This document shows, piece after piece, positions 48,296 through 57,670 of a stretch of DNA of 57,670 nt. This DNA is from an uncultured archaeon (lineage in GTDB: Archaea > Nanohalarchaeota > Nanosalinia > Nanosalinales > Nanohalalkaliarchaeaceae). Location of the stretch: the NCBI GenBank assembly GCA_964575915.1, contig CAZNTD010000001.1, forward strand, positions 1-57,670, read 5' to 3'. The position numbers and the translations under genes are program-made. Under the pieces are notes generated by a model. It was not told the origin of the DNA, ran no database searches, and saw nothing but the letters and a program-made list of their open reading frames with translations. Position 1 is the stretch's first letter; every line of letters starts with the position of its first letter.

Positions 48296-48828
48296 TGGAC
48301 GCCACGGTCGATGCCGTCCGTGGCGATGAGGTCGTCCAGTTCCGCGTCCAGCATCTCGCGCGCATCCGCGTAGGTCGCGTCGAACCCGTCCGCGCTGTCC
48401 GCCCCGCCCATCGCGCCGTAGGCGATGCCACCGGTGCTGTCCATGATATCGTCGAACAGGTCGTCCGGCGATGTCGGGGCCGTGGCGTGCGCCTCCAGCG
48501 TGGCCGCGACCGCCCGTCCCATCCGCTCCGCCTCGTCCCGGTCCCGCGGGCCGCGCCGGATGGCGAACCGCCGGTCCGCCTCCGCCCCGGGCAGGTAGTC
48601 CGTCCCGTCCGGCCGGTCGGCCACCTTCGCACCGACGCCCCGGACCGTGAACGGGTCCTTCATGTAGAGCGATGCGGCGTAGACGCCGGCGGACGGATGC
48701 GCGAGGTAGAGGTCGGTGCCGACACCCTCCCGGTCGCGCATGGCGGCACGCCAGTCCGCGGGATCCCCGGGTTCGTCGGCGACGTCGGCCATCATGTCCT
48801 CGAAGGAGCGCGGCTGCATGCACACCAC
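48292..48828 (-). CDS. hypothetical protein
   Basis: 178-aa acidic ORF. Its TATA (gggggtttaagtacc on the minus strand) suggests a start at MQPRSF (48819). Confidence 0.5.
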   Translation of the reverse strand: MVCMQPRSFEDMMADVADEPGDPADWRAAMRDREGVGTDLYLAHPSAGVYAASLYMKDPFTVRGVGAKVADRPDGTDYLPGAEADRRFAIRRGPRDRDEAERMGRAVAATLEAHATAPTSPDDLFDDIMDSTGGIAYGAMGGADSADGFDATYADAREMLDAELDDLIATDGIDRGVH

Positions 48829-48920
48829 TTGCCGGCGAGGTACTTAAACCCCCGGCGGGCAGGTGTCGCGGCACCGGCGACCGACGGATTTAAAACTTCG
48901 AACGCGGAGGGGTAGGTATC

Positions 48921-51566
48921 ATGCCCGAGGGTGACTACGAGCCGGAGGTCATCGAGCCGAAGTGGCAGGAGGTGTGGGTCGAGGAGGAGACCTACGCCTA
49001 TGCCGGGGACGGCGACGCGGTGTTCGCCATCGACACGCCGCCACCGACCGTGTCCGGCGACCTGCACATGGGACACCTGTACGGGTTCACGCTGCAGGAC
49101 TTCGTGGCACGGTTCCGGCGGATGAACGAGGACGCGGTGTTCTTCCCGTTCGGCTACGACGACAACGGCATCGCCTCGGAGCGGCTGACGGAGCGCGAAC
49201 TCGGCATCCAGCACCAGGACTACTCGCGGCGCGAGTTCCAGGAGAAGTGCCGCCAGGTGTGCCGCGAATATGAAGACGCGTTCACCGACAAGATGCAGGC
49301 GCTCGCGCTCTCCATGGACTGGAACAACACGTACAAGACCATCGAGCCGCGCGTGCAGAAGATCTCCCAGTTGAGTTTCATCGACCTGTACGAGCAGGGC
49401 CGCGAGTACCGGAAGAAGGCGCCCGCCATCTGGTGCCCCGACTGCGAGACCGCCATCTCCCAGGTCGAGATGGAGGACGCGGAGCGCCACTCGCATTTCA
49501 ACGATATTTCCTTCGACCTCGTCGACGGTGATAGGAGCAGCGGTTCCGGCGGGACCGATGCGACCATCACCATCTCCACGACGCGACCCGAACTCCTCCC
49601 GGCGTGCGTCGCCGTGTTCGTCCACCCGGAGGACGAGCGGAGCGACGACCTGGCCGGGAAGACCGCGGAGGTGCCGCTGTTCGGCCACGAGGTCCCTATC
49701 CTGGAGGACGAACGGGTGGACATGGAGAAGGGGAGCGGCGTGGTCATGAGCTGCACGTTCGGGGACCAGACAGACATCGAGTGGTACCAGGCGCACGACC
49801 TGCCGCTCCGGGTCGCCATCGACGCGTCCGGGACCATGACGGACGAGGCCGGCGCGTACGAGGGCATGTCCACGACGGAGGCGCGCAAGGCAATCGTTGA
49901 GGACCTGGACGAGGCGGGCCACCTGCTCGACCGGGAGCCCATCGAACATACGGTGCAGGTGCACGAGCGGTGCGGCACCGACGTGGAGTTCCGCGTCACG
50001 CCGCAGTGGTATATCAGGATACTTGACAGGAAGGAGGACTACCTGGAGGCCGGGCGGGAGATGGACTGGTACCCGGAGAAGATGTTCACCCGGTACAAGC
50101 ACTGGATCGAGGGGCTGCAGTGGGACTGGTGCATCTCCCGGCAGCGCGACTCCGGCATCCCGTTCCCGGTCTGGTACTGCACCGGCTGCGGCACGGAGGT
50201 GCTGGCGGAGCGGGCACAGTTGCCGGTCGACCCCATCCAGGACGAGCCGCCCGTCGATTCCTGCCCGGCGTGCGGGAACGGCGGGTTCGAGGCGGAGGAG
50301 GACGTGTTCGACACGTGGGCCACGAGCAGCCTCACACCGCTCATCAACGCGGAATGGGACGGCGACGCGCTCGGCCGCCCCGAACTCTACCCGATGGACC
50401 TGCGGCCGCAGGGCCACGACATCATCTCGTTCTGGCTGTTCCACACCGTCGTCAAGTGCCTGGAGCACACCGGCGAGGTGCCGTTCAAGAGCGTGAGCAT
50501 CAACGGCATGGTGCTCGACGAGAACCGGGAGAAGATGTCCAAGTCGAAGGGGAACGTGGTGTCGCCGGACGCGGTGCTCGAGGAGTTCCCGGTCGATGCG
50601 GCGCGGTACTGGGCCGCCGGCACGAGCATCGGCGACGACTTCCCGTTCAAGGAGAAGGACCTCGTCACCGGCCAGAAGCTGATGCGGAAGCTGTGGAACG
50701 CGTCGAAACTTGTCGAGCAGCTCGCACCCGCCGGGGACGTGCCGGACGAGCGGCCGGACCTGGAACCGCTCGACGAGTGGCTGCTCGCCGAACTCGACGA
50801 CCTCGTGGCGTTCATGACCGACGAACTCGAGGAGTACGGCTTCGCGAAGGCGCGGAACCGGCTGCGCGAGTTCTTCTGGAACGTCTACTGCGACGACTAC
50901 CTGGAGATCGCGAAGCAGCGGCTGCACGACGGCGAGGACCCGTCTGCAGCGTACACGCTGCGGGCGGCTCACCGCACCTTCCTGAAGCTGTTCGCCCCGT
51001 TCCTCGTGCACATCACCGAGGAACTGTGGCACGACATGTATGTCGACGAGAGCCAGCAGGTGGTGAACAGTATTGCCGACGTACCTGACAGCATCCACCT
51101 GGCGGACTGGCCGGAGGAGCGCGGTATCGCGGCCGACCGGGAGGCGGGGCAGCGCGCGATGGACACCATCCACGCCCTCCGCAAGCACAAGACCGACAAC
51201 CGGATGGCGCCGACCGACACCCTTGCCCGGGTGACGGTGTACGGCGACGTGTCCGGGTTCGCGGACGCCATCCGCGAGGTGATGCACGTGGACGACCTGG
51301 TGCAGGAGACCGGCAGCCCCGACATCGAGGAGACGGTCAGCGACATCTCGCTGGAGTACAGCGTGGTCGGCCCGAGGTACGGGGAGCAGGTCGGGGACAT
51401 CGAGGCGTCGCTGGACGAGGGTGACTACGACCTGGACGGCGACGAACTGCACGTGGCCGGGGAGACGCTCGGCCCGGACGAGTTCACGGTGGAGATGGAG
51501 CGGACCTACACCGGCGACGGCGAGATGGTCGCGGCCGGCGACGTCACCCTCATCGTCGAGGCGTGA
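48921..51566 (+). CDS. valS: valine--tRNA ligase
   Basis: PPPTVSGDLHMGH (HIGH) and KMSKSKGN (KMSKS). Editing and anticodon-binding regions have ValRS length and pattern. TATA ggatttaaaac lies upstream. Confidence 0.9.
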   Translation: MPEGDYEPEVIEPKWQEVWVEEETYAYAGDGDAVFAIDTPPPTVSGDLHMGHLYGFTLQDFVARFRRMNEDAVFFPFGYDDNGIASERLTERELGIQHQDYSRREFQEKCRQVCREYEDAFTDKMQALALSMDWNNTYKTIEPRVQKISQLSFIDLYEQGREYRKKAPAIWCPDCETAISQVEMEDAERHSHFNDISFDLVDGDRSSGSGGTDATITISTTRPELLPACVAVFVHPEDERSDDLAGKTAEVPLFGHEVPILEDERVDMEKGSGVVMSCTFGDQTDIEWYQAHDLPLRVAIDASGTMTDEAGAYEGMSTTEARKAIVEDLDEAGHLLDREPIEHTVQVHERCGTDVEFRVTPQWYIRILDRKEDYLEAGREMDWYPEKMFTRYKHWIEGLQWDWCISRQRDSGIPFPVWYCTGCGTEVLAERAQLPVDPIQDEPPVDSCPACGNGGFEAEEDVFDTWATSSLTPLINAEWDGDALGRPELYPMDLRPQGHDIISFWLFHTVVKCLEHTGEVPFKSVSINGMVLDENREKMSKSKGNVVSPDAVLEEFPVDAARYWAAGTSIGDDFPFKEKDLVTGQKLMRKLWNASKLVEQLAPAGDVPDERPDLEPLDEWLLAELDDLVAFMTDELEEYGFAKARNRLREFFWNVYCDDYLEIAKQRLHDGEDPSAAYTLRAAHRTFLKLFAPFLVHITEELWHDMYVDESQQVVNSIADVPDSIHLADWPEERGIAADREAGQRAMDTIHALRKHKTDNRMAPTDTLARVTVYGDVSGFADAIREVMHVDDLVQETGSPDIEETVSDISLEYSVVGPRYGEQVGDIEASLDEGDYDLDGDELHVAGETLGPDEFTVEMERTYTGDGEMVAAGDVTLIVEA

Positions 51567-51612
51567 CCCCCGTTACACCCTTTTAACGCTGTTTCACGCA
51601 GGATACGATATC

Positions 51613-52836
51613 ATGGCGCAGGAGATGGAGCCGTACGAACTCGAGAACCTCATCGAGACGCTGGAGGAGAAGCGGGGCCGCAACACCGAGCTCGTCTCGC
51701 TCTACATCCCGCCGGGCTACGACATGGCCAAGATCGTGGACTTCCTGACGACGGAGAAGTCCGAGGCCGAGAACATCAAGTCGAAGGCGACGCGGAAGAA
51801 CGTGCAGGCCGCGCTCGACAAGATCCAGCGCAGGTTGAAGGAGGTCGGGAAGACGCCGGAGAACGGGGTGGCGCTGTTCGCGGGCAACGTCTCCGAGCGG
51901 GAGGGTCGGCCGGACATCCAGATGTGGGAGGTCGTGCCGCCCGAGCCGATACAGTCGCGGCGGTACCGGTGCGACAAGGAGTTCGTGCTCGACCCGCTGA
52001 AAGACCTGGTGGTGGAGAACGATATCTACGGCATGATCGTGCTCGACCGGAGCGAGGCCGCCATCGGCTACCTGAAGGGCAACGCGTTGACCATCCGGAA
52101 GACGCTGGAGTCCAACGTCCCGGGGAAGACGACGAAGGGTGGCCAGTCCCAGCAGCGGTTCGAGCGCATCCGGGAGAACATGTACGACACGTTCCTCAAC
52201 CAGATCGCCGAGGCAGCCCAGACGGAGTTCCTGCCGAAGAAGCGGGAGGGCGAACTGCTTGGTATCGTGGTCGGCGGCCCCGGGTTCGCGAAGGACGACC
52301 TCCTGGACAAGGACTACCTCCACCGCGAGCTGCTGGACGAGGTCATCGCCCGGAAGGACACCAACTACTCCGGCGAGGAAGGGATGCACGAGCTGATGAA
52401 CAAGTCGGAGGACGTCATCCGGGAGAGCCGCGCCATCAAGGAGCAGCAACTGGTGCAGGAGTTCCTCACGAACCTGAAGGAGGAGAACGGCAAGTCCACG
52501 TACGGCCTGCAGGAGGTGGCGCGGGCGCTGGGCATGGGCGCGGTCGACACGGTGCTCATCTCCGAGGACCTCGACATGCGCGAGGTCACCATGACCTGCG
52601 GCGAGGACGAGGAAGAGATCGTGGAGTACGTCTACGCCGACGAACTGGACGACGTGGAATGCCCGGACGGCAGCGAGCCCGACGATCTGACCACGCGGGA
52701 CATCGTGGACGTGGTGAAGGAGAAGGCCGCGCAGATGGACTCCGATGTCCACCTCATCTCCCCCGATTCGGCCGAGGGCAAGCGGCTGAAGAACATGGGC
52801 GGAATCGCCGCCATCCTCCGGTACCGCATCGGATGA
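51613..52836 (+). CDS. prf1: peptide chain release factor aRF1
   Basis: NIKS and GGQ motifs (AENIKSKATRKN, TKGGQSQQRFERIR). Trimmed from the track ORF, which begins inside valS. Confidence 0.9.
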   Translation: MAQEMEPYELENLIETLEEKRGRNTELVSLYIPPGYDMAKIVDFLTTEKSEAENIKSKATRKNVQAALDKIQRRLKEVGKTPENGVALFAGNVSEREGRPDIQMWEVVPPEPIQSRRYRCDKEFVLDPLKDLVVENDIYGMIVLDRSEAAIGYLKGNALTIRKTLESNVPGKTTKGGQSQQRFERIRENMYDTFLNQIAEAAQTEFLPKKREGELLGIVVGGPGFAKDDLLDKDYLHRELLDEVIARKDTNYSGEEGMHELMNKSEDVIRESRAIKEQQLVQEFLTNLKEENGKSTYGLQEVARALGMGAVDTVLISEDLDMREVTMTCGEDEEEIVEYVYADELDDVECPDGSEPDDLTTRDIVDVVKEKAAQMDSDVHLISPDSAEGKRLKNMGGIAAILRYRIG

Positions 52837-52882
52837 CAGCGGACCGCGCACCACTTAAACGTTGGTCCCGTGGCCGTGTGGG

Positions 52883-53488
52883 ATGGACAGTTACGACCCG
52901 GCGGAACAGGACGCGTTCCCGGACATGCGGCTCGTCGACCCGCACGAGACGCACGACGAGCTCTACCTGCTGGTGCATCCCGGGGACAGCATGCTTCGCA
53001 CCGATATCTACGAGAACTTCGGCGGTGCCTGGTCGTTGGCCGGACTGCGGACCGAGGACTACACCCGGTACGCGGGGACGCTCGCCTCCCGGCTGCGCCG
53101 GGCCGACGACCGGGACGTCCCGGTCGCGGTGATGTACCGCGGCCGGACGCTGGATGACACCCGTGAGTTCCTCGGGGAGCACGACGATATCGTGGACGCG
53201 TATATCCCGACCAGCAGCCTCAGCGGCTACATGGTCGATGACGGGCCGGAGATGCTTGCACGCTCCCTCGCACGGCTGGAGCCCGGCGGGACGATCAGGG
53301 TGGCGGGAGAGATGGCGGGACTGTGCCATGACCAGGCGGTGGAGCAGGTCGAGGACATCCTGAACGTGCTGGACCCCGGGGCCACGGTGCGGGAGGACCT
53401 GACGTTCCCGGAGAAACGGCTTGAACGGGTGAACGGGACGCTGTACTGGGAGGACTCATCGACACCGCGGTTCCCGAGCAAGCTCTAG
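52883..53488 (+). CDS. hypothetical protein
   Basis: ATG about 27 nt downstream of TATA cacttaaacg; 201 aa, acidic. Confidence 0.5.
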   Translation: MDSYDPAEQDAFPDMRLVDPHETHDELYLLVHPGDSMLRTDIYENFGGAWSLAGLRTEDYTRYAGTLASRLRRADDRDVPVAVMYRGRTLDDTREFLGEHDDIVDAYIPTSSLSGYMVDDGPEMLARSLARLEPGGTIRVAGEMAGLCHDQAVEQVEDILNVLDPGATVREDLTFPEKRLERVNGTLYWEDSSTPRFPSKL

Positions 53489-53952
53489 TCCAGCATGATG
53501 ACCTCGTCCGCGGCGTCCCGGAGCGCGGTCGAGAACCCCTGGTCCATGCCCGCGACGACGGCACGCTTCCCGTGCTGCTTCGCCTTCTGCACCACCGGGA
53601 CGAAATCCGCGTCACGGGTGACGAGGACGATGGTGTCCACCCGGTCGTCGAACACCGCCTCCATCGCGGCCGCCGCCATGTAGACGTCCACGTCCGACGC
53701 CTCGTCCTCCACCTCGCCCACCCCGAGCACCGGTTCGAAGCCCTGGGAGGCGATGGCCTCGATGAGCTTGTCCGGGGCGAACTGGTTGAGGAACACCTTC
53801 GCGGATGTCACCCGGCCCTCCTCCTCCAGCCGCTCCCGGAACTCGTCGAGATCGAGGTCGAACTCGCGGCGGATGATGTTCGGACCGTCCACGAACACCG
53901 CGATCCTGTCCCGCCGGTCGACCACCCCGAACAGCCTGTCGAGCACGGTCAC
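53485..53952 (-). CDS. NYN / LabA-like (PIN-like fold) domain protein
   Basis: IAVFVDGPNI...VDVYMAAAAMEAV...DTIVLVTRDADFVPVVQKAKQHGKRAVV is the typical NYN pattern. The GTG start overlaps the upstream stop (GTGA). Confidence 0.75.
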   Translation of the reverse strand: MTVLDRLFGVVDRRDRIAVFVDGPNIIRREFDLDLDEFRERLEEEGRVTSAKVFLNQFAPDKLIEAIASQGFEPVLGVGEVEDEASDVDVYMAAAAMEAVFDDRVDTIVLVTRDADFVPVVQKAKQHGKRAVVAGMDQGFSTALRDAADEVIMLD

Positions 53953-54446
53953 GCCCCGTCAAGGCTGCGCTTGATACCGCGCAGCACGTCCAGCATCTCG
54001 CTGTTCTGCTGTTCGATGCGCTGCAGCGTCTCCACCAGTTCGTCGCTGGACGTGTCCACGCCGCTCGCGTGCGTCCCGCCGGCGGACTCCACCGCATCAG
54101 CCTGTGCTGCACCGGTCCCGCCCGCGGTCTCCGACCGGTCCTGCGCGGCACCGGACGGTTCCCGGTCACGCTGTTGCTGCGCGTCCTCGCGTGGCCCCTG
54201 CGACTCCTCCTGCTGCGATGCGGTGTCGGCCGACCCCTCGGCCGGTTTGATGCCGTCCTCGGTGAGGACCTCTATCTCCGTGTCCGAGCCGGACGACCCC
54301 TCGTCGTCCCCCTCGTCTTCCGCTCCCTTCTTCAGATGATCGAATGGCATAGTATCGTTATCCTCGTCCTGTCCTGCCGGCTGTTCCTCCCGGCCGTCAC
54401 CGTTCTCCTCCCGGATGTCGTCCTTGACAGAGTCGTAGAACCCCAT
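53949..54446 (-). CDS. disordered acidic protein, member 3 of tandem paralogue trio
   Basis: N-terminus MGFYDSVKDDI and C-terminus LQRIEQQNSEMLDVLRGIK are shared with the two upstream genes. Confidence 0.65.
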   Translation of the reverse strand: MGFYDSVKDDIREENGDGREEQPAGQDEDNDTMPFDHLKKGAEDEGDDEGSSGSDTEIEVLTEDGIKPAEGSADTASQQEESQGPREDAQQQRDREPSGAAQDRSETAGGTGAAQADAVESAGGTHASGVDTSSDELVETLQRIEQQNSEMLDVLRGIKRSLDGA

Positions 54447-54449
54447 CGG

Positions 54450-54815
54450 TCATCCCCATATCGAGTCGCTCTCGTCGCCACCGGCGATATCCTCCAGCAG
54501 CTCGATGATCCGTTCGTTCTGGTCGATGATGCGCTGCATCTTCTCCCCGTCCGCCGCAGCATCACGGCTGTCACGCGACCGGCGGGAGCGGGACGTTCCG
54601 GAGCCGGAGCGGTCGCGCGACGCGTCCCGAGACGCGTCGTCCTCCGTCTCACCGGACGGCTCCATGCCAGGCAGGAGGAACCGGTCGTCATCCTCCGCCT
54701 CCGCGGCAGCCTCCTCCGTGTCGTCGGGGCGGAGCCGCTCCTCGGACCCGGACCCTGCGGGTGGCCGGAGCTCCACTTCCTCGTCGTTCCCCTTTATCTT
54801 GTCGAACAGTCCCAT
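54450..54815 (-). CDS. disordered acidic protein, member 2 of tandem paralogue trio
   Basis: Start set at the ATG giving MGLFDKIKGND, by alignment with the paralogues. C-terminus MQRIIDQNERIIELLEDIA. Confidence 0.65.
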   Translation of the reverse strand: MGLFDKIKGNDEEVELRPPAGSGSEERLRPDDTEEAAAEAEDDDRFLLPGMEPSGETEDDASRDASRDRSGSGTSRSRRSRDSRDAAADGEKMQRIIDQNERIIELLEDIAGGDESDSIWG

Positions 54816-54820
54816 GTGTA

Positions 54821-55609
54821 TCACCGCCGTCCGCCGCGTCCACGACCCCCGCCCATCCCGTCACGGATATCCTCGAGGAGGTCGATGATGCGGTCGTTCT
54901 GGTCCGCGATCTCGTTCAGCCGGCCCTCCATGTCGACCGGCTCGCCCGGGCCGGGCATGTCCAGGTTGTAGTCCCGCGGCCGGTCCGGCATGTCGTCCAT
55001 CCCGCCGGGCTCGTCCGGGCCACGCCGGCCGCCCCGGCCTCGGTCGGGCTCCATCCGGGGCCTGTCACGGTCACGCGGGCCGCGCCCCCGCTCCGGACCG
55101 GGACCCCTGTCGTCCATGTCGCCGGGACGGTCGCCACCGCCGGGACCGTCACGCGGACCCGCCGGCGAGTCGAAGTCCAGGTCGTCCGGCCCGCCCTCGT
55201 CCAGCGGCGGGAGTCCACCGTCCCGCTCCGGCCTCCGACCACCCGGCTCGTCCGGGCCGGCACGTCCCGGGCCGCCACCCGGCCCCTCCGCGGGGGCGGG
55301 AGCGTCCGGACCGCCGCGCGGTGGTTCGTCCTCGAACCCGGCCGGGTCCTGCCCGGCACCGCCGGGACCGCCCGGTCCCCGCTCCATCTCCCCGGGACCG
55401 CCGGGTCCCTGACCGCCGGGCTCCCCGCCCGGTCCACCACGGCCGCGGCGGTCCTGCCCGGATCCCTGGCCGCGCTGCGGGCCTGCCGGACCCCGCCGCC
55501 GCTCCGATCCCTGGCCCTGTCCGGGTGGTTCGCGCATCTTGCCCTGTGGACGCGGTGGCTGCTCGTCACCGCCCCCGAACCGCCGCTTGATCGCGTCGAT
55601 GAGTCCCAT
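54821..55609 (-). CDS. Gly/Pro/Arg/Asp-rich disordered protein, member 1 of tandem paralogue trio
   Basis: Start set at the ATG giving MGLIDAIKRRF. C-terminus LNEIADQNDRIIDLLEDIR. The frame was chosen by terminal paralogy, because several frames are open in this low-complexity DNA. Confidence 0.6.
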   Translation of the reverse strand: MGLIDAIKRRFGGGDEQPPRPQGKMREPPGQGQGSERRRGPAGPQRGQGSGQDRRGRGGPGGEPGGQGPGGPGEMERGPGGPGGAGQDPAGFEDEPPRGGPDAPAPAEGPGGGPGRAGPDEPGGRRPERDGGLPPLDEGGPDDLDFDSPAGPRDGPGGGDRPGDMDDRGPGPERGRGPRDRDRPRMEPDRGRGGRRGPDEPGGMDDMPDRPRDYNLDMPGPGEPVDMEGRLNEIADQNDRIIDLLEDIRDGMGGGRGRGGRR

Positions 55610-55699
55610 GTGTGTATCTGTCGGTCCCGCGGTAAACCCGCGCTCGGCGGGGTTTTGCGTACCTTTAAATGTGCCTGATACCACAGTATTTTTGTACCT

Positions 55700-55711
55700 C
55701 CTTAATTAAGG
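55700..55711. promoter_or_regulatory. perfect 12-bp palindrome CCTTAATTAAGG immediately upstream of the coiled-coil protein gene
   Basis: Read directly. It lies 3 nt before the ATG at 55714, in the divergent control region. Confidence 0.4.
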
Positions 55712-55713
55712 TA

Positions 55714-57306
55714 ATGGTGATGGCACACGACCACGACAAGGGATACTGCCAGGACGGGTGCTACCCGGTAGCCGGCTCGGGGATGACCGCCGAGGTCGAC
55801 GGCGAGGAGTTCGTCATCGACGACATCCACGACCTCCGGGAGTACATCGCGGCGGTGAACGCGTCCGGCGGCAACGGTCCGCTCGCCGCGGAGCAGCTCA
55901 TCGTCGAGAACGAACCGAACGGCGAGCCCTACGTCCTTCCCGACCCGGACGAGGAGGACCCTATCAAGCGGAAGATCAAGGGACGCGGCATCTCAATCTC
56001 CGGCATCGGCCAGGGGTTCGACATGGCGGCCTACCTCGACGTGGTCGACCGGATGACGACGCACTACCGGTTCAACGGACCTATCAAGGTGAAGGAGTGG
56101 GTGCGGGCCACGCCGCAGAGCCAGGTGCACGACGAGCTGCAGCAGCGGCGGCAGCAGGCTGAGCAGCAGATCAACCGGCAGTTATCAAGTCTATCGGACC
56201 TGTACGAGCAGAAGCAGCTGCTGGAGCACGACCTCCGGACGCTGGAGGAGCGGATGGCGCACTTCGAGGCGGACGAGGACGAGAAAGGAAGTGGCGGCGG
56301 CTACGAGGACGAACTGAAGGCGGACTTCGTCGACCTCGTGGACCAGCACACCGGCCGGCACAGCATCCTGCAGATGCAGGCGAACAACGTGTTCCCGTCC
56401 ATCACCGCCGACTTCTACCAGATGTCCAGCCTGGACGACCTGGAGGACGGGCCGCTGAAGGACCTTCCCGAGAACGAGAAGGCGACGCTGCGGAAGAAGT
56501 GGAAGCTGTACGAGCGGTGGAAGGACCAGTTCGAGGCAGCGGTCCGGTCACGGCTGGAGGACGTGCGCCGCCGGCTGAACTCGGTGGAGGCCAGCATCGA
56601 GCAGACCGAGAACTGGATCAAGCCGTACGTGGAGGACCTGCAGCGCATCCAGGGCGGACCGTTCGACGAGCAGCTGGCGTTCGGCGCGGAGATCGACATG
56701 TACCTCCCGGCGGCCGCCTCCAACACGTACCGGTTGATGAAGATGATCGCGTGGCGCGACCGGAGCCCCGGCGAAGAGGAGGACCTCTACCAGGACGTGG
56801 TGCTGATGGAGCCGCTCAAGTTCTTCACCGGCGACCTGGAAAGCCCGCAGCGGGCGGGAGAGGGTCTCGGCGTGTTCAAGAACCGGTGGACGGAACTCCT
56901 GGTCTGCCAGCACGTGTTCGAGGCGGTGTTCGAGCCGCAGCTTGACGAGAAGACGGACGAGATCCAGCGGGTCATCAGCCAGTTCGTCGGGGAGCCGGAC
57001 GTGGAACTGGAGGAGGCGCGGGAGCGCATCCAGGAGCGGTACCACCTGACCGGGGACGAGGAGGAGGCGCTGGAGGACGCCGCGACCGGCAGCGAGGCGT
57101 ACGAGATCGAGCGGGAGATCATCGACCGGGTCCGACCCGGGTTCTCGACGCGGCTGCGTGAACGTATCAAGACGTTCCTCGGGATGACCGACGCGTTCTA
57201 CCATCCCAAACCGACGGAACTCCGCCGGGAGCTCATGGGCCCGTACTTCCCGACCCAGTTCTACCTGGACTACAAGTACGAGAACGGCCTCTACGTGATG
57301 AAGTGA
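55714..57306 (+). CDS. large coiled-coil protein of unknown function
   Basis: About 530 aa with long heptad-like segments (QQRRQQAEQQINRQLSSLSDLYEQKQLLEHDLRTLEERM; RLEDVRRRLNSVEASIEQTENWIKPYVEDLQRI). The AT-rich element tattttt lies about 24 nt upstream. An alternative ATG is at 55720. Confidence 0.65.
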   Translation: MVMAHDHDKGYCQDGCYPVAGSGMTAEVDGEEFVIDDIHDLREYIAAVNASGGNGPLAAEQLIVENEPNGEPYVLPDPDEEDPIKRKIKGRGISISGIGQGFDMAAYLDVVDRMTTHYRFNGPIKVKEWVRATPQSQVHDELQQRRQQAEQQINRQLSSLSDLYEQKQLLEHDLRTLEERMAHFEADEDEKGSGGGYEDELKADFVDLVDQHTGRHSILQMQANNVFPSITADFYQMSSLDDLEDGPLKDLPENEKATLRKKWKLYERWKDQFEAAVRSRLEDVRRRLNSVEASIEQTENWIKPYVEDLQRIQGGPFDEQLAFGAEIDMYLPAAASNTYRLMKMIAWRDRSPGEEEDLYQDVVLMEPLKFFTGDLESPQRAGEGLGVFKNRWTELLVCQHVFEAVFEPQLDEKTDEIQRVISQFVGEPDVELEEARERIQERYHLTGDEEEALEDAATGSEAYEIEREIIDRVRPGFSTRLRERIKTFLGMTDAFYHPKPTELRRELMGPYFPTQFYLDYKYENGLYVMK

Positions 57307-57670
57307 TGGTCGACTGGCCAGACCCGCTGACGGTGCCGGACGCGGTCAGGGACCTGAAGGACCGGTTCCTCGCAAGTTTCCAGTCCGGGGCGGAGGAGTC
57401 GGAGAAGGTGCGAGACCTCAACTACATCGTCGCGGTCTCGTCCGGCAAGGCGGTGACGGAGGATATCCCGAAGCAGATCGGCCGCCGCGCCGGGTGGGCG
57501 TCGCAGCAGGGCGCCAACTTCGTGGAGATCCTCATCGAGAACCCGTCGCAGCTGGTGATGGACCAGGACATGCTGGTCAACCTGGCGGACCGGCTCGACC
57601 TCCACTACAACATCCACTCCTCCACCAACCTCGCGTACGGCATGTCGTACCGGGTCGGCCGGGGCAACGG
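57306..57670 (+). CDS. hypothetical protein, 3' end outside window
   Basis: The ATG overlaps the previous stop (TGATG). Sequence MVDWPDPLTVPD...; the frame is open to the window end. Confidence 0.55.
   Translation, partial: MVDWPDPLTVPDAVRDLKDRFLASFQSGAEESEKVRDLNYIVAVSSGKAVTEDIPKQIGRRAGWASQQGANFVEILIENPSQLVMDQDMLVNLADRLDLHYNIHSSTNLAYGMSYRVGRGN

What the first reader, a model, noticed from the sequence alone, without database searches (positions are those of the whole stretch)
53485..55609. Operon of three tandem paralogous disordered proteins (shared N-terminal MG[LF]xDxxK and C-terminal QN-helix) coupled to a NYN-domain gene
Three consecutive minus-strand genes lie at 54821-55609, 54450-54815 and 53949-54446 (262, 121 and 165 aa). 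They are separated by only 5 and 3 nt. The last one overlaps (GTGA) the GTG start of a NYN/LabA-like gene at 53485-53952.

All three proteins begin with the same short motif: MGLIDAIKRRF, MGLFDKIKGND, MGFYDSVKDDI. All three end with the same ~19-aa amphipathic helix: LNEIADQNDRIIDLLEDIR, MQRIIDQNERIIELLEDIA, LQRIEQQNSEMLDVLRGIK. The sequence between the termini is low-complexity and unalignable. Two linkers are extremely acidic; the longest is a GPGG/RGRG/DRP-type quasi-repeat.

Conservation confined to the two termini, with free-drifting linkers, is what I would expect of flexible tethers or adaptors. The N-terminal amphipathic segment could bind membrane or a polymer, and the C-terminal helix could act as a short docking peptide. 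Tight translational coupling to a predicted RNase-fold (NYN) protein suggests a functional module.

I do not recognise this as a named family or system. It is the best candidate for something undescribed in the window.
Basis: partly seen in the sequence, partly recalled or inferred. Interest (0 to 1): 0.7.

Follow-up and report, generated by a model that had tools for sequence, protein, structure and literature searches.

The report
Orphan disordered-protein trio in Nanohaloarchaea
Three back-to-back genes encode mostly unstructured proteins that share a short head and a helical tail; the family was found only in tiny salt-loving symbiotic archaea (Nanohaloarchaeota) and is reliably linked to two other orphan genes, not to the neighbouring RNase-like gene.

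Summary
Three tightly packed minus-strand genes (A 262 aa, B 121 aa, C 165 aa) each start with MG-Φ-Φ-D-x-Φ-K and each carry a C-terminal Φxx-Φxx-QN-xx-ΦΦ-x-ΦL-xx-Φ helix. Each motif occurs exactly three times in the 57.7 kb window, against 0.015 and 0.000 hits expected from shuffles.

The interpretation needs correcting.
- The window is nanohaloarchaeal (DPANN), not haloarchaeal.
- All three genes are conserved orthologous groups across loci with 39-67% GC. No member matches Pfam or NCBIfam, and the window trio also has no PADLOC hit, only one insignificant PHROGs hit (B, E 0.014) and no PDB relative for the shared helix.
- A profile search of 1.84 billion protein representatives found only about 60 B-type clusters. 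Every named one is a Nanohaloarchaea "hypothetical protein".
- The linkers are not free-drifting. Each paralogue keeps its own short motifs.
- The conserved partner is not the NYN gene, which is adjacent, separated, convergent or absent depending on clade. It is the divergent pair D (orphan coiled-coil protein with no fold match) and E (about 700 aa, weakly xylose-isomerase-like TIM barrel).

My best reading is that the three proteins are co-translated flexible tethers. They would oligomerise through an Asn-core coiled coil and carry a PspA/Vipp1-α0-like amphipathic head, serving D-E. The mechanism is inferred, not shown.

The parts
54821..55609 (-). Gene A, 262 aa. Gly/Pro/Arg/Asp-rich disordered protein with head MGLIDAIKRRF and tail helix LNEIADQNDRIIDLLEDIRDGM, ending in ...GGRR.
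   Evidence: A-type genes sit divergent from D in every locus with enough flank, although in the deep clade their match to the A model is weak or absent. The ATG start is supported by orthologues.
54450..54815 (-). Gene B, 121 aa, acidic and disordered. Motifs: MGLFDKIKG, EEVELRP (54762-54782), FLLPGM (54663-54680) and the helix MQRIIDQNERIIELLEDI, followed by an acidic tail ending in IWG.
   Evidence: 62 representative clusters in 1.84e9 proteins, all B-like except one false positive.
53949..54446 (-). Gene C, 165 aa, very acidic (net charge -30) and disordered. Motifs: MGFYDSVKDDIR, M-x-F-D-x-L-K, TEIEVL and the helix LQRIEQQNSEMLDVLRGIKRSL.
55586..55609 (-). N-terminal motif of A (MGLIDAIK). 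The equivalent motifs are B at 54792-54815 and C at 54423-54446. Hydrophobic residues fall at positions 3, 4 and 7 in all three, and also at 11 in A and C, which resembles the PspA/Vipp1 helix α0 start MGLFDRxxRV.
54854..54919 (-). C-terminal helix of A (residues 231-252). The equivalent helices are B at 54486-54539 (residues 93-110) and C at 53961-54026 (residues 141-162). Gln-Asn is invariant and the Asn falls in a core heptad position.
53485..53952 (-). NYN-domain gene (155 aa), translationally coupled to C in this window through the GTGA overlap. It is a syntenic neighbour rather than a conserved member of the module.
55610..55719 (.). Divergent intergenic region between A and D. It is AT-rich and holds TTTAAA and TTAATTAA elements, which are presumed archaeal promoter boxes.
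   Evidence: sequence inspection only. The 5' hairpin is not significant.
55720..57306 (+). Gene D, 528 aa. Orphan protein with an α/β N-domain, a long antiparallel coiled-coil hairpin, and β-sheet and helical C-domains. It is the invariant divergent partner of A.
57306..57670 (+). 5' part of gene E, which runs off the window end. Full length is 692-865 aa in relatives. It always follows D and is modelled as a TIM barrel with a large helical insertion.

Best explanation
A, B and C form a Nanohaloarchaeota-specific family of paralogous, mostly disordered "beads-on-a-string" proteins. They are made from one transcript in near-equal amounts, because the genes overlap or lie only a few nucleotides apart.

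Each protein has three kinds of element:
1. A short N-terminal amphipathic head of the PspA/Vipp1-α0 type (MGLFDR-like, with hydrophobic residues at positions 3, 4, 7 and usually 11).
2. Paralogue-specific short linear motifs on a flexible, compositionally drifting linker.
3. A C-terminal amphipathic helix of 18-25 residues, with a widened a/d/e hydrophobic stripe and an invariant Gln-Asn whose Asn sits in a core position.

I infer that the three helices bundle in parallel and in register into a hetero-oligomer, most simply an A:B:C trimer with a polar Asn layer. That would yield a multivalent flexible tether whose heads and linker motifs recruit or position the products of the divergent operon. 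Those products are D, an orphan coiled-coil protein, and E, an orphan enzyme that looks like a metal-dependent TIM barrel. The site of action may be the membrane.

The NYN gene is a conserved-synteny neighbour that became translationally coupled in this clade. It is not a defining partner.

What is shown: the genes are real, are conserved, are restricted to this lineage, have this motif architecture, and are linked to D-E. What is inferred: oligomerisation, membrane binding, and any action on D or E.
For: - **Real coding genes.** The three orthologous groups are conserved in about 15 distinct genomes spanning 39-67% GC.
- **Lineage restriction.** Every named homologue of B, D and E is nanohaloarchaeal. 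A full HMM scan of 1.84e9 representatives gives 62 hits.
- **Linkage to D-E.** D and E are adjacent in every locus where the sequence extends beyond D. A lies divergent from D in every locus with flank, including the deep clade that keeps only one paralogue there.
- **Tight spacing.** A-B gaps are -4 to +10 nt and B-C gaps are +3 to +22 nt (or a 7-nt overlap, depending on the start chosen for C in L008) across six genomes.
- **Helix homology.** hhalign gives E=2e-9 to 4e-5 between the paralogue profiles.
- **Helix pattern.** Hydrophobic residues sit at N-7, N-4, (N-3), N+3, N+4, N+6, N+7 and N+10, plus N+14 in A and C. QN is 52/52 invariant.
- **Non-interchangeable helices.** Charges are paralogue-specific and reciprocal. 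B has Arg at N+2 (20/22) and Glu at N+8 (21/21). C has Glu/Gln at N+2 (14/14) and Arg at N+8 (14/14).
- **Literature on core Asn.** Conserved core Asn residues are a known feature of bZIP dimers, and Asn triads bind chloride in trimeric coiled coils (PMC13580157, PMC12933892).
- **Literature on the head.** PspA/Vipp1 helix α0 starts with a conserved MGLFDRxxRV, is unstructured until it binds lipid, and then becomes amphipathic (PMC13051332).
- **Disorder.** Composition and charge-hydropathy values place the trio far on the disordered side.
Against: - No structural or experimental test of oligomerisation or membrane binding was possible.
- The head is only 8-11 residues before acidic sequence begins. 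It is especially short in B, so it is short for a stand-alone membrane anchor.
- A similar N-terminal start occurs on the NYN proteins and on a haloarchaeal NYN homologue, so it may be a generic feature rather than a specific signal.
- Three heptads is near the lower limit for a stable coiled coil.
- Some clades keep only A+C (L018, L025) or only A (L026-L030) next to D. In one genome a B-like/C-like pair sits elsewhere. A strict 1:1:1 trimer therefore cannot be universal.
- Gene order in these small genomes is conserved over a long housekeeping stretch (aaRS, aRF1, NYN, trio, D, E, nucleotidyltransferase, Trm1). Adjacency alone is therefore weak evidence of function.
Confidence: 0.4

Rival explanations
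1. Docking-peptide adaptor. The C-terminal helix does not self-associate. It is a short linear motif that each paralogue uses to dock onto a folded partner such as D's coiled-coil hairpin, E or NYN, much as MIM helices dock on MIT domains or the FtsZ C-terminal peptide docks on its partners.
For: - The helix is short and sits at or near the C-terminus.
- Its a/d/e stripe is as compatible with burial in a groove as with a helical bundle.
- Paralogue-specific surface charges could match three different sites.
- D offers a long helical hairpin and is always adjacent.
Against: - No partner domain with a known helix-binding function (MIT, TPR and the like) was detected nearby.
- An invariant buried-type Asn is more typical of coiled-coil cores than of docking peptides.
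- The clade with a single paralogue keeps the same helix.
Confidence: 0.3
2. RNA-processing module with the NYN RNase. A's RG/RGG-like low-complexity region binds RNA, or forms a condensate with the acidic B and C, and recruits the translationally coupled NYN nuclease.
For: - C and NYN overlap by GTGA in the window, and NYN is directly downstream in six related genomes.
- NYN lies close to the trio in most clades, even where the arrangement differs.
- A contains RGRG and GGRR segments.
- The NYN N-terminus resembles the trio head.
Against: - NYN is separated by two unrelated genes in L007, L008 and L015. It is on the opposite strand in L026-L030 and absent within 8 kb in Nanoanaerosalina.
- A's RG content is not conserved. 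It is Q/N/S/K-rich in other lineages.
- A haloarchaeon that was not seen to carry the trio has the same NYN N-terminus.
- Electrostatic coacervation is unlikely in a salt-in cytoplasm (established knowledge).
Confidence: 0.1
3. The genes are part of a mobile, defence or toxin-antitoxin element, or they are spurious ORFs produced by GC-rich DNA.
For: - They are small, unannotated genes next to a nuclease-fold gene.
- The 67% GC window contains many long overlapping ORFs.
Against: - The trio has no PADLOC hit, and PHROGs gave only one insignificant match for B (E 0.014).
- The genes hold a fixed chromosomal position among housekeeping genes across the phylum.
- The reading frames and motifs are conserved in loci down to 39% GC.
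- The motifs occur far more often than chance predicts.
Confidence: 0.02

Closest known systems
PspA/Vipp1 (IM30) helix α0, bacterial and plastid ESCRT-III superfamily
   Same: The N-terminus matches the start of α0. The trio reads MGLFD[KR]I.. (B), MGL[IV]D.IK..[FV] (A) and M[GA]FYDSVK..[IV]R (C), against the conserved MGLFDRxxRV of α0. That segment is unstructured until it binds lipid and then becomes amphipathic (PMC13051332). A and C share its hydrophobic spacing at positions 3, 4, 7 and 11.
   Different: There is no ESCRT-III helical core and no EDPE linker. None of 43 family members hits PF04012. The amphipathic stretch is only 8-11 residues, against 20-30 in α0.
Coiled coils with a conserved core asparagine: bZIP/GCN4 Asn at position a, and the N@d chloride-binding layers of trimeric autotransporter adhesins
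   Same: The helix has heptad-spaced hydrophobic residues with one invariant Asn in a core position. In known coiled coils such layers are conserved core features, and in trimers they can bind Cl- (PMC13580157, PMC12933892).
   Different: The helix is only about three heptads long. It has an extra hydrophobic e/g position. It sits at the end of an otherwise disordered protein. No sequence relationship was found, and the oligomeric state was not tested.
Disordered proteins with a short oligomerisation helix, such as the paramyxovirus phosphoprotein P
   Same: The architecture is similar: long disordered regions carrying short motifs, plus one short coiled-coil helix. The only PDB sequence resembling the helix profile is a phosphoprotein oligomerisation segment (6eb9, RLNHIEEQVKKIINKLESIDRVL).
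   Different: The match is not significant (E=0.35). This is an analogy only, with no homology, and the biology is viral.
TIGR00288 / LabA-like NYN-domain proteins (this applies to the neighbouring gene only)
   Same: The 155-aa downstream gene is a clear NYN-domain protein: PF01936 at 2.9e-29, with closest PDB entry 2qip.
   Different: This NYN group occurs without an adjacent trio-like gene, for example on a Natrinema replicon. Its linkage to the trio varies between clades.
Xylose-isomerase-like TIM barrels such as YcjR, D-allulose 3-epimerase and UVDE (this applies to partner E only)
   Same: The AF2 model of E aligns to these barrels: 6wn6 with probability 1.0 and TM-score 0.57 normalised to the target. 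E also carries invariant His/Asp/Glu motifs.
   Different: Foldseek E-values are only about 0.02. There is no Pfam or PDB sequence match. A helical insertion of about 250 residues is present. The model is of moderate quality, with pLDDT 69.

Membership tests
PspA/Vipp1 (PF04012, ESCRT-III superfamily) | N-terminal amphipathic helix α0 that starts with MGLFDRxxRV | tested here: inconclusive
   The first 5-8 residues match (MGLFDKIKG, MGLIDAIKRRF), and A and C have hydrophobic residues at positions 3, 4, 7 and 11. The stretch is much shorter than α0, and lipid binding was not tested.
PspA/Vipp1 (PF04012, ESCRT-III superfamily) | ESCRT-III helical hairpin core (α1-α5), detectable as a PspA_IM30 match | tested here: not met
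   No Pfam hit at E<=1 for the window proteins and none at E<=0.1 for 43 orthologues. The bodies of the proteins are compositionally disordered.
Coiled coil with a polar Asn core layer (bZIP type a-Asn, or trimeric N@d) | Heptad-spaced hydrophobic core positions with a conserved Asn at a core position | tested here: met
   The pattern is Φ(N-7) Φ(N-4) N Φ(N+3,+4) Φ(N+6,+7) Φ(N+10) [Φ(N+14)]. QN is invariant in 52/52 sequences.
Coiled coil with a polar Asn core layer (bZIP type a-Asn, or trimeric N@d) | The helices actually assemble into a parallel oligomer | not testable with these tools
NYN-associated operon or defence/TA system | Conserved co-oriented linkage of the small genes with the NYN nuclease gene | tested here: not met
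   NYN is adjacent in six genomes, separated by 1.4 kb in three, convergent in five and absent within 8 kb in five loci. The trio has no PADLOC hit.
NYN domain, TIGR00288 (neighbouring gene) | Match to the NYN domain and to the TIGR00288 equivalog model | tested here: inconclusive
   PF01936 is clearly met (102.9 bits against a cutoff of 24.2). TIGR00288 scores 166.6 bits, just under its 178.45 cutoff.
Any described protein family (Pfam-A, NCBIfam, PHROGs, PADLOC, PDB sequences) | A significant profile match for A, B or C | tested here: not met
   The best hit is PHROG 5375 at E=0.014 over 18 residues.
Xylose-isomerase-like TIM barrel (partner E) | (β/α)8 barrel fold with metal-ligand His/Asp/Glu residues | tested here: inconclusive
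   Foldseek probability is 0.96-1.0 but E is about 0.02, and the model has pLDDT 69. Candidate ligand motifs were seen by inspection only. There is no sequence-level match.

The most novel reading that the evidence does not exclude
A, B, C, D and E together form a previously unrecognised cellular machine specific to the Nanohaloarchaeota. Three disordered paralogues would form a heterotrimer through a halide-coordinating Asn-layer coiled coil suited to a molar-KCl cytoplasm. They would use PspA/Vipp1-α0-like heads to tether an orphan coiled-coil scaffold (D) and an orphan TIM-barrel metalloenzyme (E) to the membrane. That would make it a lineage-defining system for membrane or envelope maintenance, or for host contact, in these obligate symbionts.
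Probability: 0.15. Interest if true: 0.75.

Novelty: categorically new. Interest (0 to 1): 0.5.

Why it matters
Nanohaloarchaeota are obligate DPANN symbionts of haloarchaea with very small genomes, so genes kept across the whole phylum are likely to matter for their unusual cell biology. This work defines a five-gene orphan set (A, B, C, D, E) that is conserved wherever the data allow it to be checked. It has no detectable relatives elsewhere, and one member (D) has a confidently modelled fold with no match in the PDB or in viral structure libraries. That gives a concrete, testable target in a culturable system, the Nanohaloarchaeum-Halorubrum co-cultures. It is also a clean natural example of paralogous disordered proteins in which only the terminal motifs and short linear motifs are under selection, and of a possible Asn-core coiled coil working at multi-molar salt. 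Finally, it corrects an attractive but unsupported "RNase operon" reading.

Tried and rejected
**Sequence-family searches**
- Pfam, NCBIfam, PADLOC and PHROGs scans of A, B, C, D and E, plus Pfam scans of 43 orthologues, gave nothing significant.
- PDB sequence searches gave nothing. D and E were searched as single sequences and as profiles, and the C-terminal helix as a profile.

**Structure searches**
- Foldseek of the D model against the PDB and BFVD returned no match better than E=0.014, and all hits had low TM-scores.
- Foldseek of the E model gave only weak TIM-barrel similarity.

**Ideas considered and dropped**
- D as a Rad50/SMC/JetC-like protein. The weak hits (E 0.002-0.02) cover only the coiled coil, no P-loop is present, and there is no fold match to an ATPase head.
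- The trio as degenerate PspA/ESCRT-III proteins. They have no helical core and no PF04012 hit.
- The N-terminal Met-Gly as a lipidation signal. Position 2 varies (G/A/S/K/N/E) among orthologues.
- The acidic proteins as DNA mimics. The high negative charge is not conserved in low-salt-type lineages, where net charge is -3 to -7.
- A structured 5' leader upstream of A. The z-score is -1.46, which is not significant.

**Other dead ends**
- Literature searches found no description of these genes.
- Looking up the window's own NCBI record failed, so the assembly name is unknown.
- GC3 periodicity cannot discriminate A's frame in this GC-rich gene. Ortholog conservation was used instead.


Full report
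**1.

ORF listing and direct reading of the minus strand confirm the genes:
- A lies at 54821-55609 (262 aa from the ATG).
- B lies at 54450-54815 (121 aa).
- C lies at 53949-54446 (165 aa).
- A 155-aa gene lies at 53485-53952.

The spacers are 5 nt and 3 nt, and the C stop overlaps the start of the last gene in GTGA. That last gene is a clear NYN-domain protein. PF01936 gives E=2.9e-29, and TIGR00288 scores 166.6 bits, just below its cutoff.

A regular expression for the head (M[GAS]ΦΦDxΦ[KR]) and one for the tail helix (ΦxxΦxxQNxx[IM][IL]x[LV]L) each hit exactly three times in all six frames of the 57.7-kb window. All hits fall in these genes. Two hundred codon-block shuffles give means of 0.015 and 0.000.

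Composition is strongly of the disordered type. A is 44% Gly+Pro, B and C have net charges of -18 and -30, and mean hydropathy is 0.33-0.37 against a charge-hydropathy boundary of 0.43-0.48. The neighbouring folded proteins sit at 0.42-0.50. DNA-level repeats in A are only weak quasi-repeats.

**2. The organism is a nanohaloarchaeon, and the genes are real**

Homologues of B are 98-162-aa proteins, and every named one comes from a Candidatus Nanohaloarchaea MAG. The same holds for the divergent 528-aa gene D (33 homologues) and for the gene E that follows it (14 homologues).

A scan of one genome per GTDB species with a D profile returned 21 loci. All came from Nanohaloarchaeota: QJJ-5, QJJ-7 and QJJ-9, Asbonarchaeaceae, Nanoanaerosalina and SW_4_43_9.

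The window's aRF1 and class-I aaRS are 76% and 68% identical to those of MAG QJJ-7, in the same gene order.

The related loci span 39-63% GC, against 67% for the window, yet they keep the three reading frames with the same heads and tails. This settles the frame of the GC-rich gene A and its ATG start, because orthologues have only 4-10 codons of open frame upstream of the MG. One automatic gene call had chosen the GTG at 55684 instead.

**3. How far the family reaches**

A profile of 13 B orthologues was scored against all 1.84 billion cluster representatives. It found 62 proteins at E<=1e-3. All are 59-172 aa and B-like except one obvious repeat-protein false positive. The named members of the weakest clusters are again "hypothetical protein [Candidatus Nanohaloarchaea archaeon]".

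For the window trio, Pfam and NCBIfam found nothing at E ≤1, PADLOC found nothing, and PHROGs gave only an insignificant 18-residue hit for B (E 0.014). Pfam also reported nothing significant for 43 orthologues of A, B and C (best chance hits E 0.002-0.06). A PDB search with the shared C-terminal helix gave no significant match. The family is therefore undescribed and, as far as these searches reach, restricted to one phylum.

**4. Anatomy**

hhalign between the three ortholog profiles aligns only the C-terminal helix, but does so significantly: B/A 2.2e-9, C/A 1.9e-8 and B/C 3.6e-5. "Paralogous" is therefore supported for the tail. For the head it rests on inspection plus the chance estimate above.

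The linkers do not align between paralogues, but they are not featureless among orthologues:
- B keeps EEVE[IL]x-P directly after the head (sometimes duplicated) and an invariant [FIL]-L-P-G-M. Its acidic tail ends in W, LW or VL.
- C keeps M-x-F-[DE]-x-L, [DS]-D-T-x-I-E-[VD] and, in one subclade, YGDPSSIEL.
- A keeps [MIL]-R-x-P-P after the head, P-x-D-Y-N-L-D-L-P in one subclade, and a terminal RR.

In the helix, Gln-Asn is invariant in 52 of 52 sequences. Hydrophobic residues occupy N-7, N-4 (and N-3 in B), N+3, N+4, N+6, N+7 and N+10, plus N+14 in A and C. This is an a/d/e-type stripe over about three heptads, with the Asn in a core position.

Some positions are paralogue-specific and reciprocal. 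B has Arg at N+2 (20/22) and Glu at N+8 (21/21). C has Glu/Gln at N+2 (14/14) and Arg at N+8 (14/14). The three helices are therefore not interchangeable.

**5. What the trio is really linked to**

Local HMMs for A, B, C, D, E and NYN were run over all fetched loci.
- D and E are adjacent in every locus where the sequence extends beyond D, and an A-type gene is divergent from D wherever flank exists.
- The full A-B-C trio is present at that position in about 15 distinct genomes.
- Two lineages have A+C only (L018, L025).
- A deep clade, where D is 27-30% identical, has a single A-like gene (L026-L030).
- In one further genome a coupled B-like/C-like pair lies elsewhere, next to Amphi-Trp, OapC, OapB and GTPase genes.

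NYN behaves differently from clade to clade. It is immediately downstream and co-oriented in the window, L001, L004, L012, L013 and L017. It is separated by AlaX-like and radical-SAM genes in L007, L008 and L015. It is convergent on the other strand in L026-L030. It is absent within 8 kb in Nanoanaerosalina, where a MarR-like gene and ABC-transporter genes follow.

The whole stretch (aaRS, aRF1, NYN, trio, D, E, nucleotidyltransferase, Trm1) is syntenic across the phylum. I therefore read the C-NYN overlap in the window as local compaction of neighbours, not as a defining module.

**6. The partners**

D gives a confident AF2 model (pLDDT 82.8, pTM 0.74). It has an α/β N-domain, a 50-60-residue antiparallel coiled-coil hairpin, a three-stranded long β-sheet and a helical C-terminal region. 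Foldseek finds nothing better than E=0.37 in the PDB or E=0.014 in BFVD, and all hits have low TM-scores. Its weak SMC/JetC/SbcC profile hits are coiled-coil noise. D has invariant C14, C396 and H398, and near-invariant C10 and H12.

E gives a moderate model (pLDDT 69). Its best matches are xylose-isomerase-like TIM barrels (YcjR 6wn6 with probability 1.0 and TMt 0.57, D-allulose 3-epimerase, UVDE) and the barrel of O-GlcNAcase, all at E of about 0.02. E carries invariant His/Asp/Glu-rich motifs but has no sequence-level match. I treat [quoted passage not shown] as a lead, not a finding.

**7. Mechanism**

The following are shown: co-linear, tightly spaced genes; a lineage-restricted family; conserved termini and short motifs on disordered linkers; and invariant linkage to D-E. 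The steps below are inferred.

- **Tail.** The tail is a short coiled-coil oligomerisation element. Conserved core Asn residues are a hallmark of bZIP zippers (position a). In trimeric coiled coils, Asn layers point inward and can coordinate chloride (PMC13580157, PMC12933892). Three conserved paralogues with non-interchangeable helices, made in equal amounts, fit a hetero-oligomer, most simply a trimer. The single-paralogue clade would form a homo-oligomer.
- **Head.** The head matches the conserved start of PspA/Vipp1 helix α0 (MGLFDRxxRV), a segment that is disordered until it binds lipid (PMC13051332). A and C share its 3/4/7/11 hydrophobic spacing. A weak membrane-binding head would gain avidity from oligomerisation.
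- **Linker motifs.** Motifs such as E-V-E-L, which could form a β-strand, would then bind D and/or E.

There are caveats. The head is very short. A similar start occurs on the NYN proteins and on a Natrinema NYN homologue (MFDRVRTRL), so it may be generic. Oligomerisation and partner binding could not be tested here.

I give it nearly equal weight.

**8. Comparison with what is known, and verdict**

The trio fails the defining test for PspA/ESCRT-III, because it has no helical core and no PF04012 match. It is not a conserved NYN operon. It matches no defence, phage or structural family. The resemblances (α0-like head, Asn-core coiled coil, viral-phosphoprotein-like architecture) are at the level of motif or analogy only.

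I therefore rate it an undescribed, phylum-specific protein family inside an undescribed five-gene set. Interest is moderate, because the function is still inferred and orphan families are common in DPANN genomes. Against that, the conservation pattern, the unmatched fold of D and the availability of co-cultures make it a tractable target.

Noticed in passing
window 55720-57306 (+); A1 alignment: Gene D is an orphan 528-aa protein. Its AF2 model is confident (pLDDT 82.8) but has no significant fold match in the PDB or BFVD. It has invariant C14, C396 and H398, and near-invariant C10 and H12, which suggests a metal site bridging the N-terminus and the β-domain. Two homologues carry a precomputed BAR-domain (PF03114) hit that is probably coiled-coil noise.
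   Followed up: partly
window 57306-57670 (+), runs off the end; full length at L001 4524-6626 (-): Gene E is 692-865 aa and restricted to Nanohaloarchaeota. It has invariant motifs HYNIHSS, NGHM, FESHMAGP, IDMEH, HVTHPY and MYEIG. Its model weakly resembles xylose-isomerase-like TIM barrels (YcjR, allulose epimerase, UVDE) with a helical insertion of about 250 residues.
   Followed up: partly
window 53907-53952 (-); L001 9694-9740; L004 10722-10760; L034 2947-2975: The NYN proteins start with a head like the trio's (MTVLDRLFGVV, MLFKKLKKGL, MLFDRLKKGL). A haloarchaeal NYN homologue on a Natrinema replicon starts MFDRVRTRL. This amphipathic start is therefore a feature of this NYN group and is not specific to the trio.
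   Followed up: partly
L004 11756-14542; L008 3222-6041 (compare window 51550-52836): The aRF1 gene carries an intein with a LAGLIDADG/HTH insert (928-939 aa) in two related nanohaloarchaeal genomes. The window's aRF1 is intein-free (about 428 aa).
   Followed up: no
window 52862-53488 (+): An orphan 208-aa gene is convergent with NYN, and their 3' ends overlap by 4 nt. It has no Pfam or NCBIfam match. A probable counterpart is present in L004 (186 aa) and L031 (201 aa) but absent at this position in L001.
   Followed up: no
L032 7653-8303 and neighbours: In GCA_012927685.1 a translationally coupled B-like (115 aa, with the helix mid-protein) and C-like (100 aa) pair lies away from any D-E locus. 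It sits beside genes with Amphi-Trp, OapC, OapB and GTPase domains.
   Followed up: partly
window 53949-55609: The three disordered-protein genes have lower third-position GC (0.81-0.83) than the neighbouring genes (0.93-0.95), even though overall GC is equal or higher. The window (67% GC) is the most GC-rich of all the nanohaloarchaeal loci compared (39-63%).
   Followed up: no
window 48792-51452 (-) and other long antisense ORFs: Very long ORFs lie antisense to real genes, for example 886 aa opposite the aaRS and 423 aa opposite aRF1. They are by-products of the high GC content and not evidence of genes.
   Followed up: no
L001 1-685; L004 1-2552; L008 16465-17535: HerA-like (DUF87) and NurA genes lie a few kilobases beyond E, after the nucleotidyltransferase, Trm1 and TFB genes, in several genomes. 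No Mre11 or Rad50 gene was seen in these stretches.
   Followed up: no
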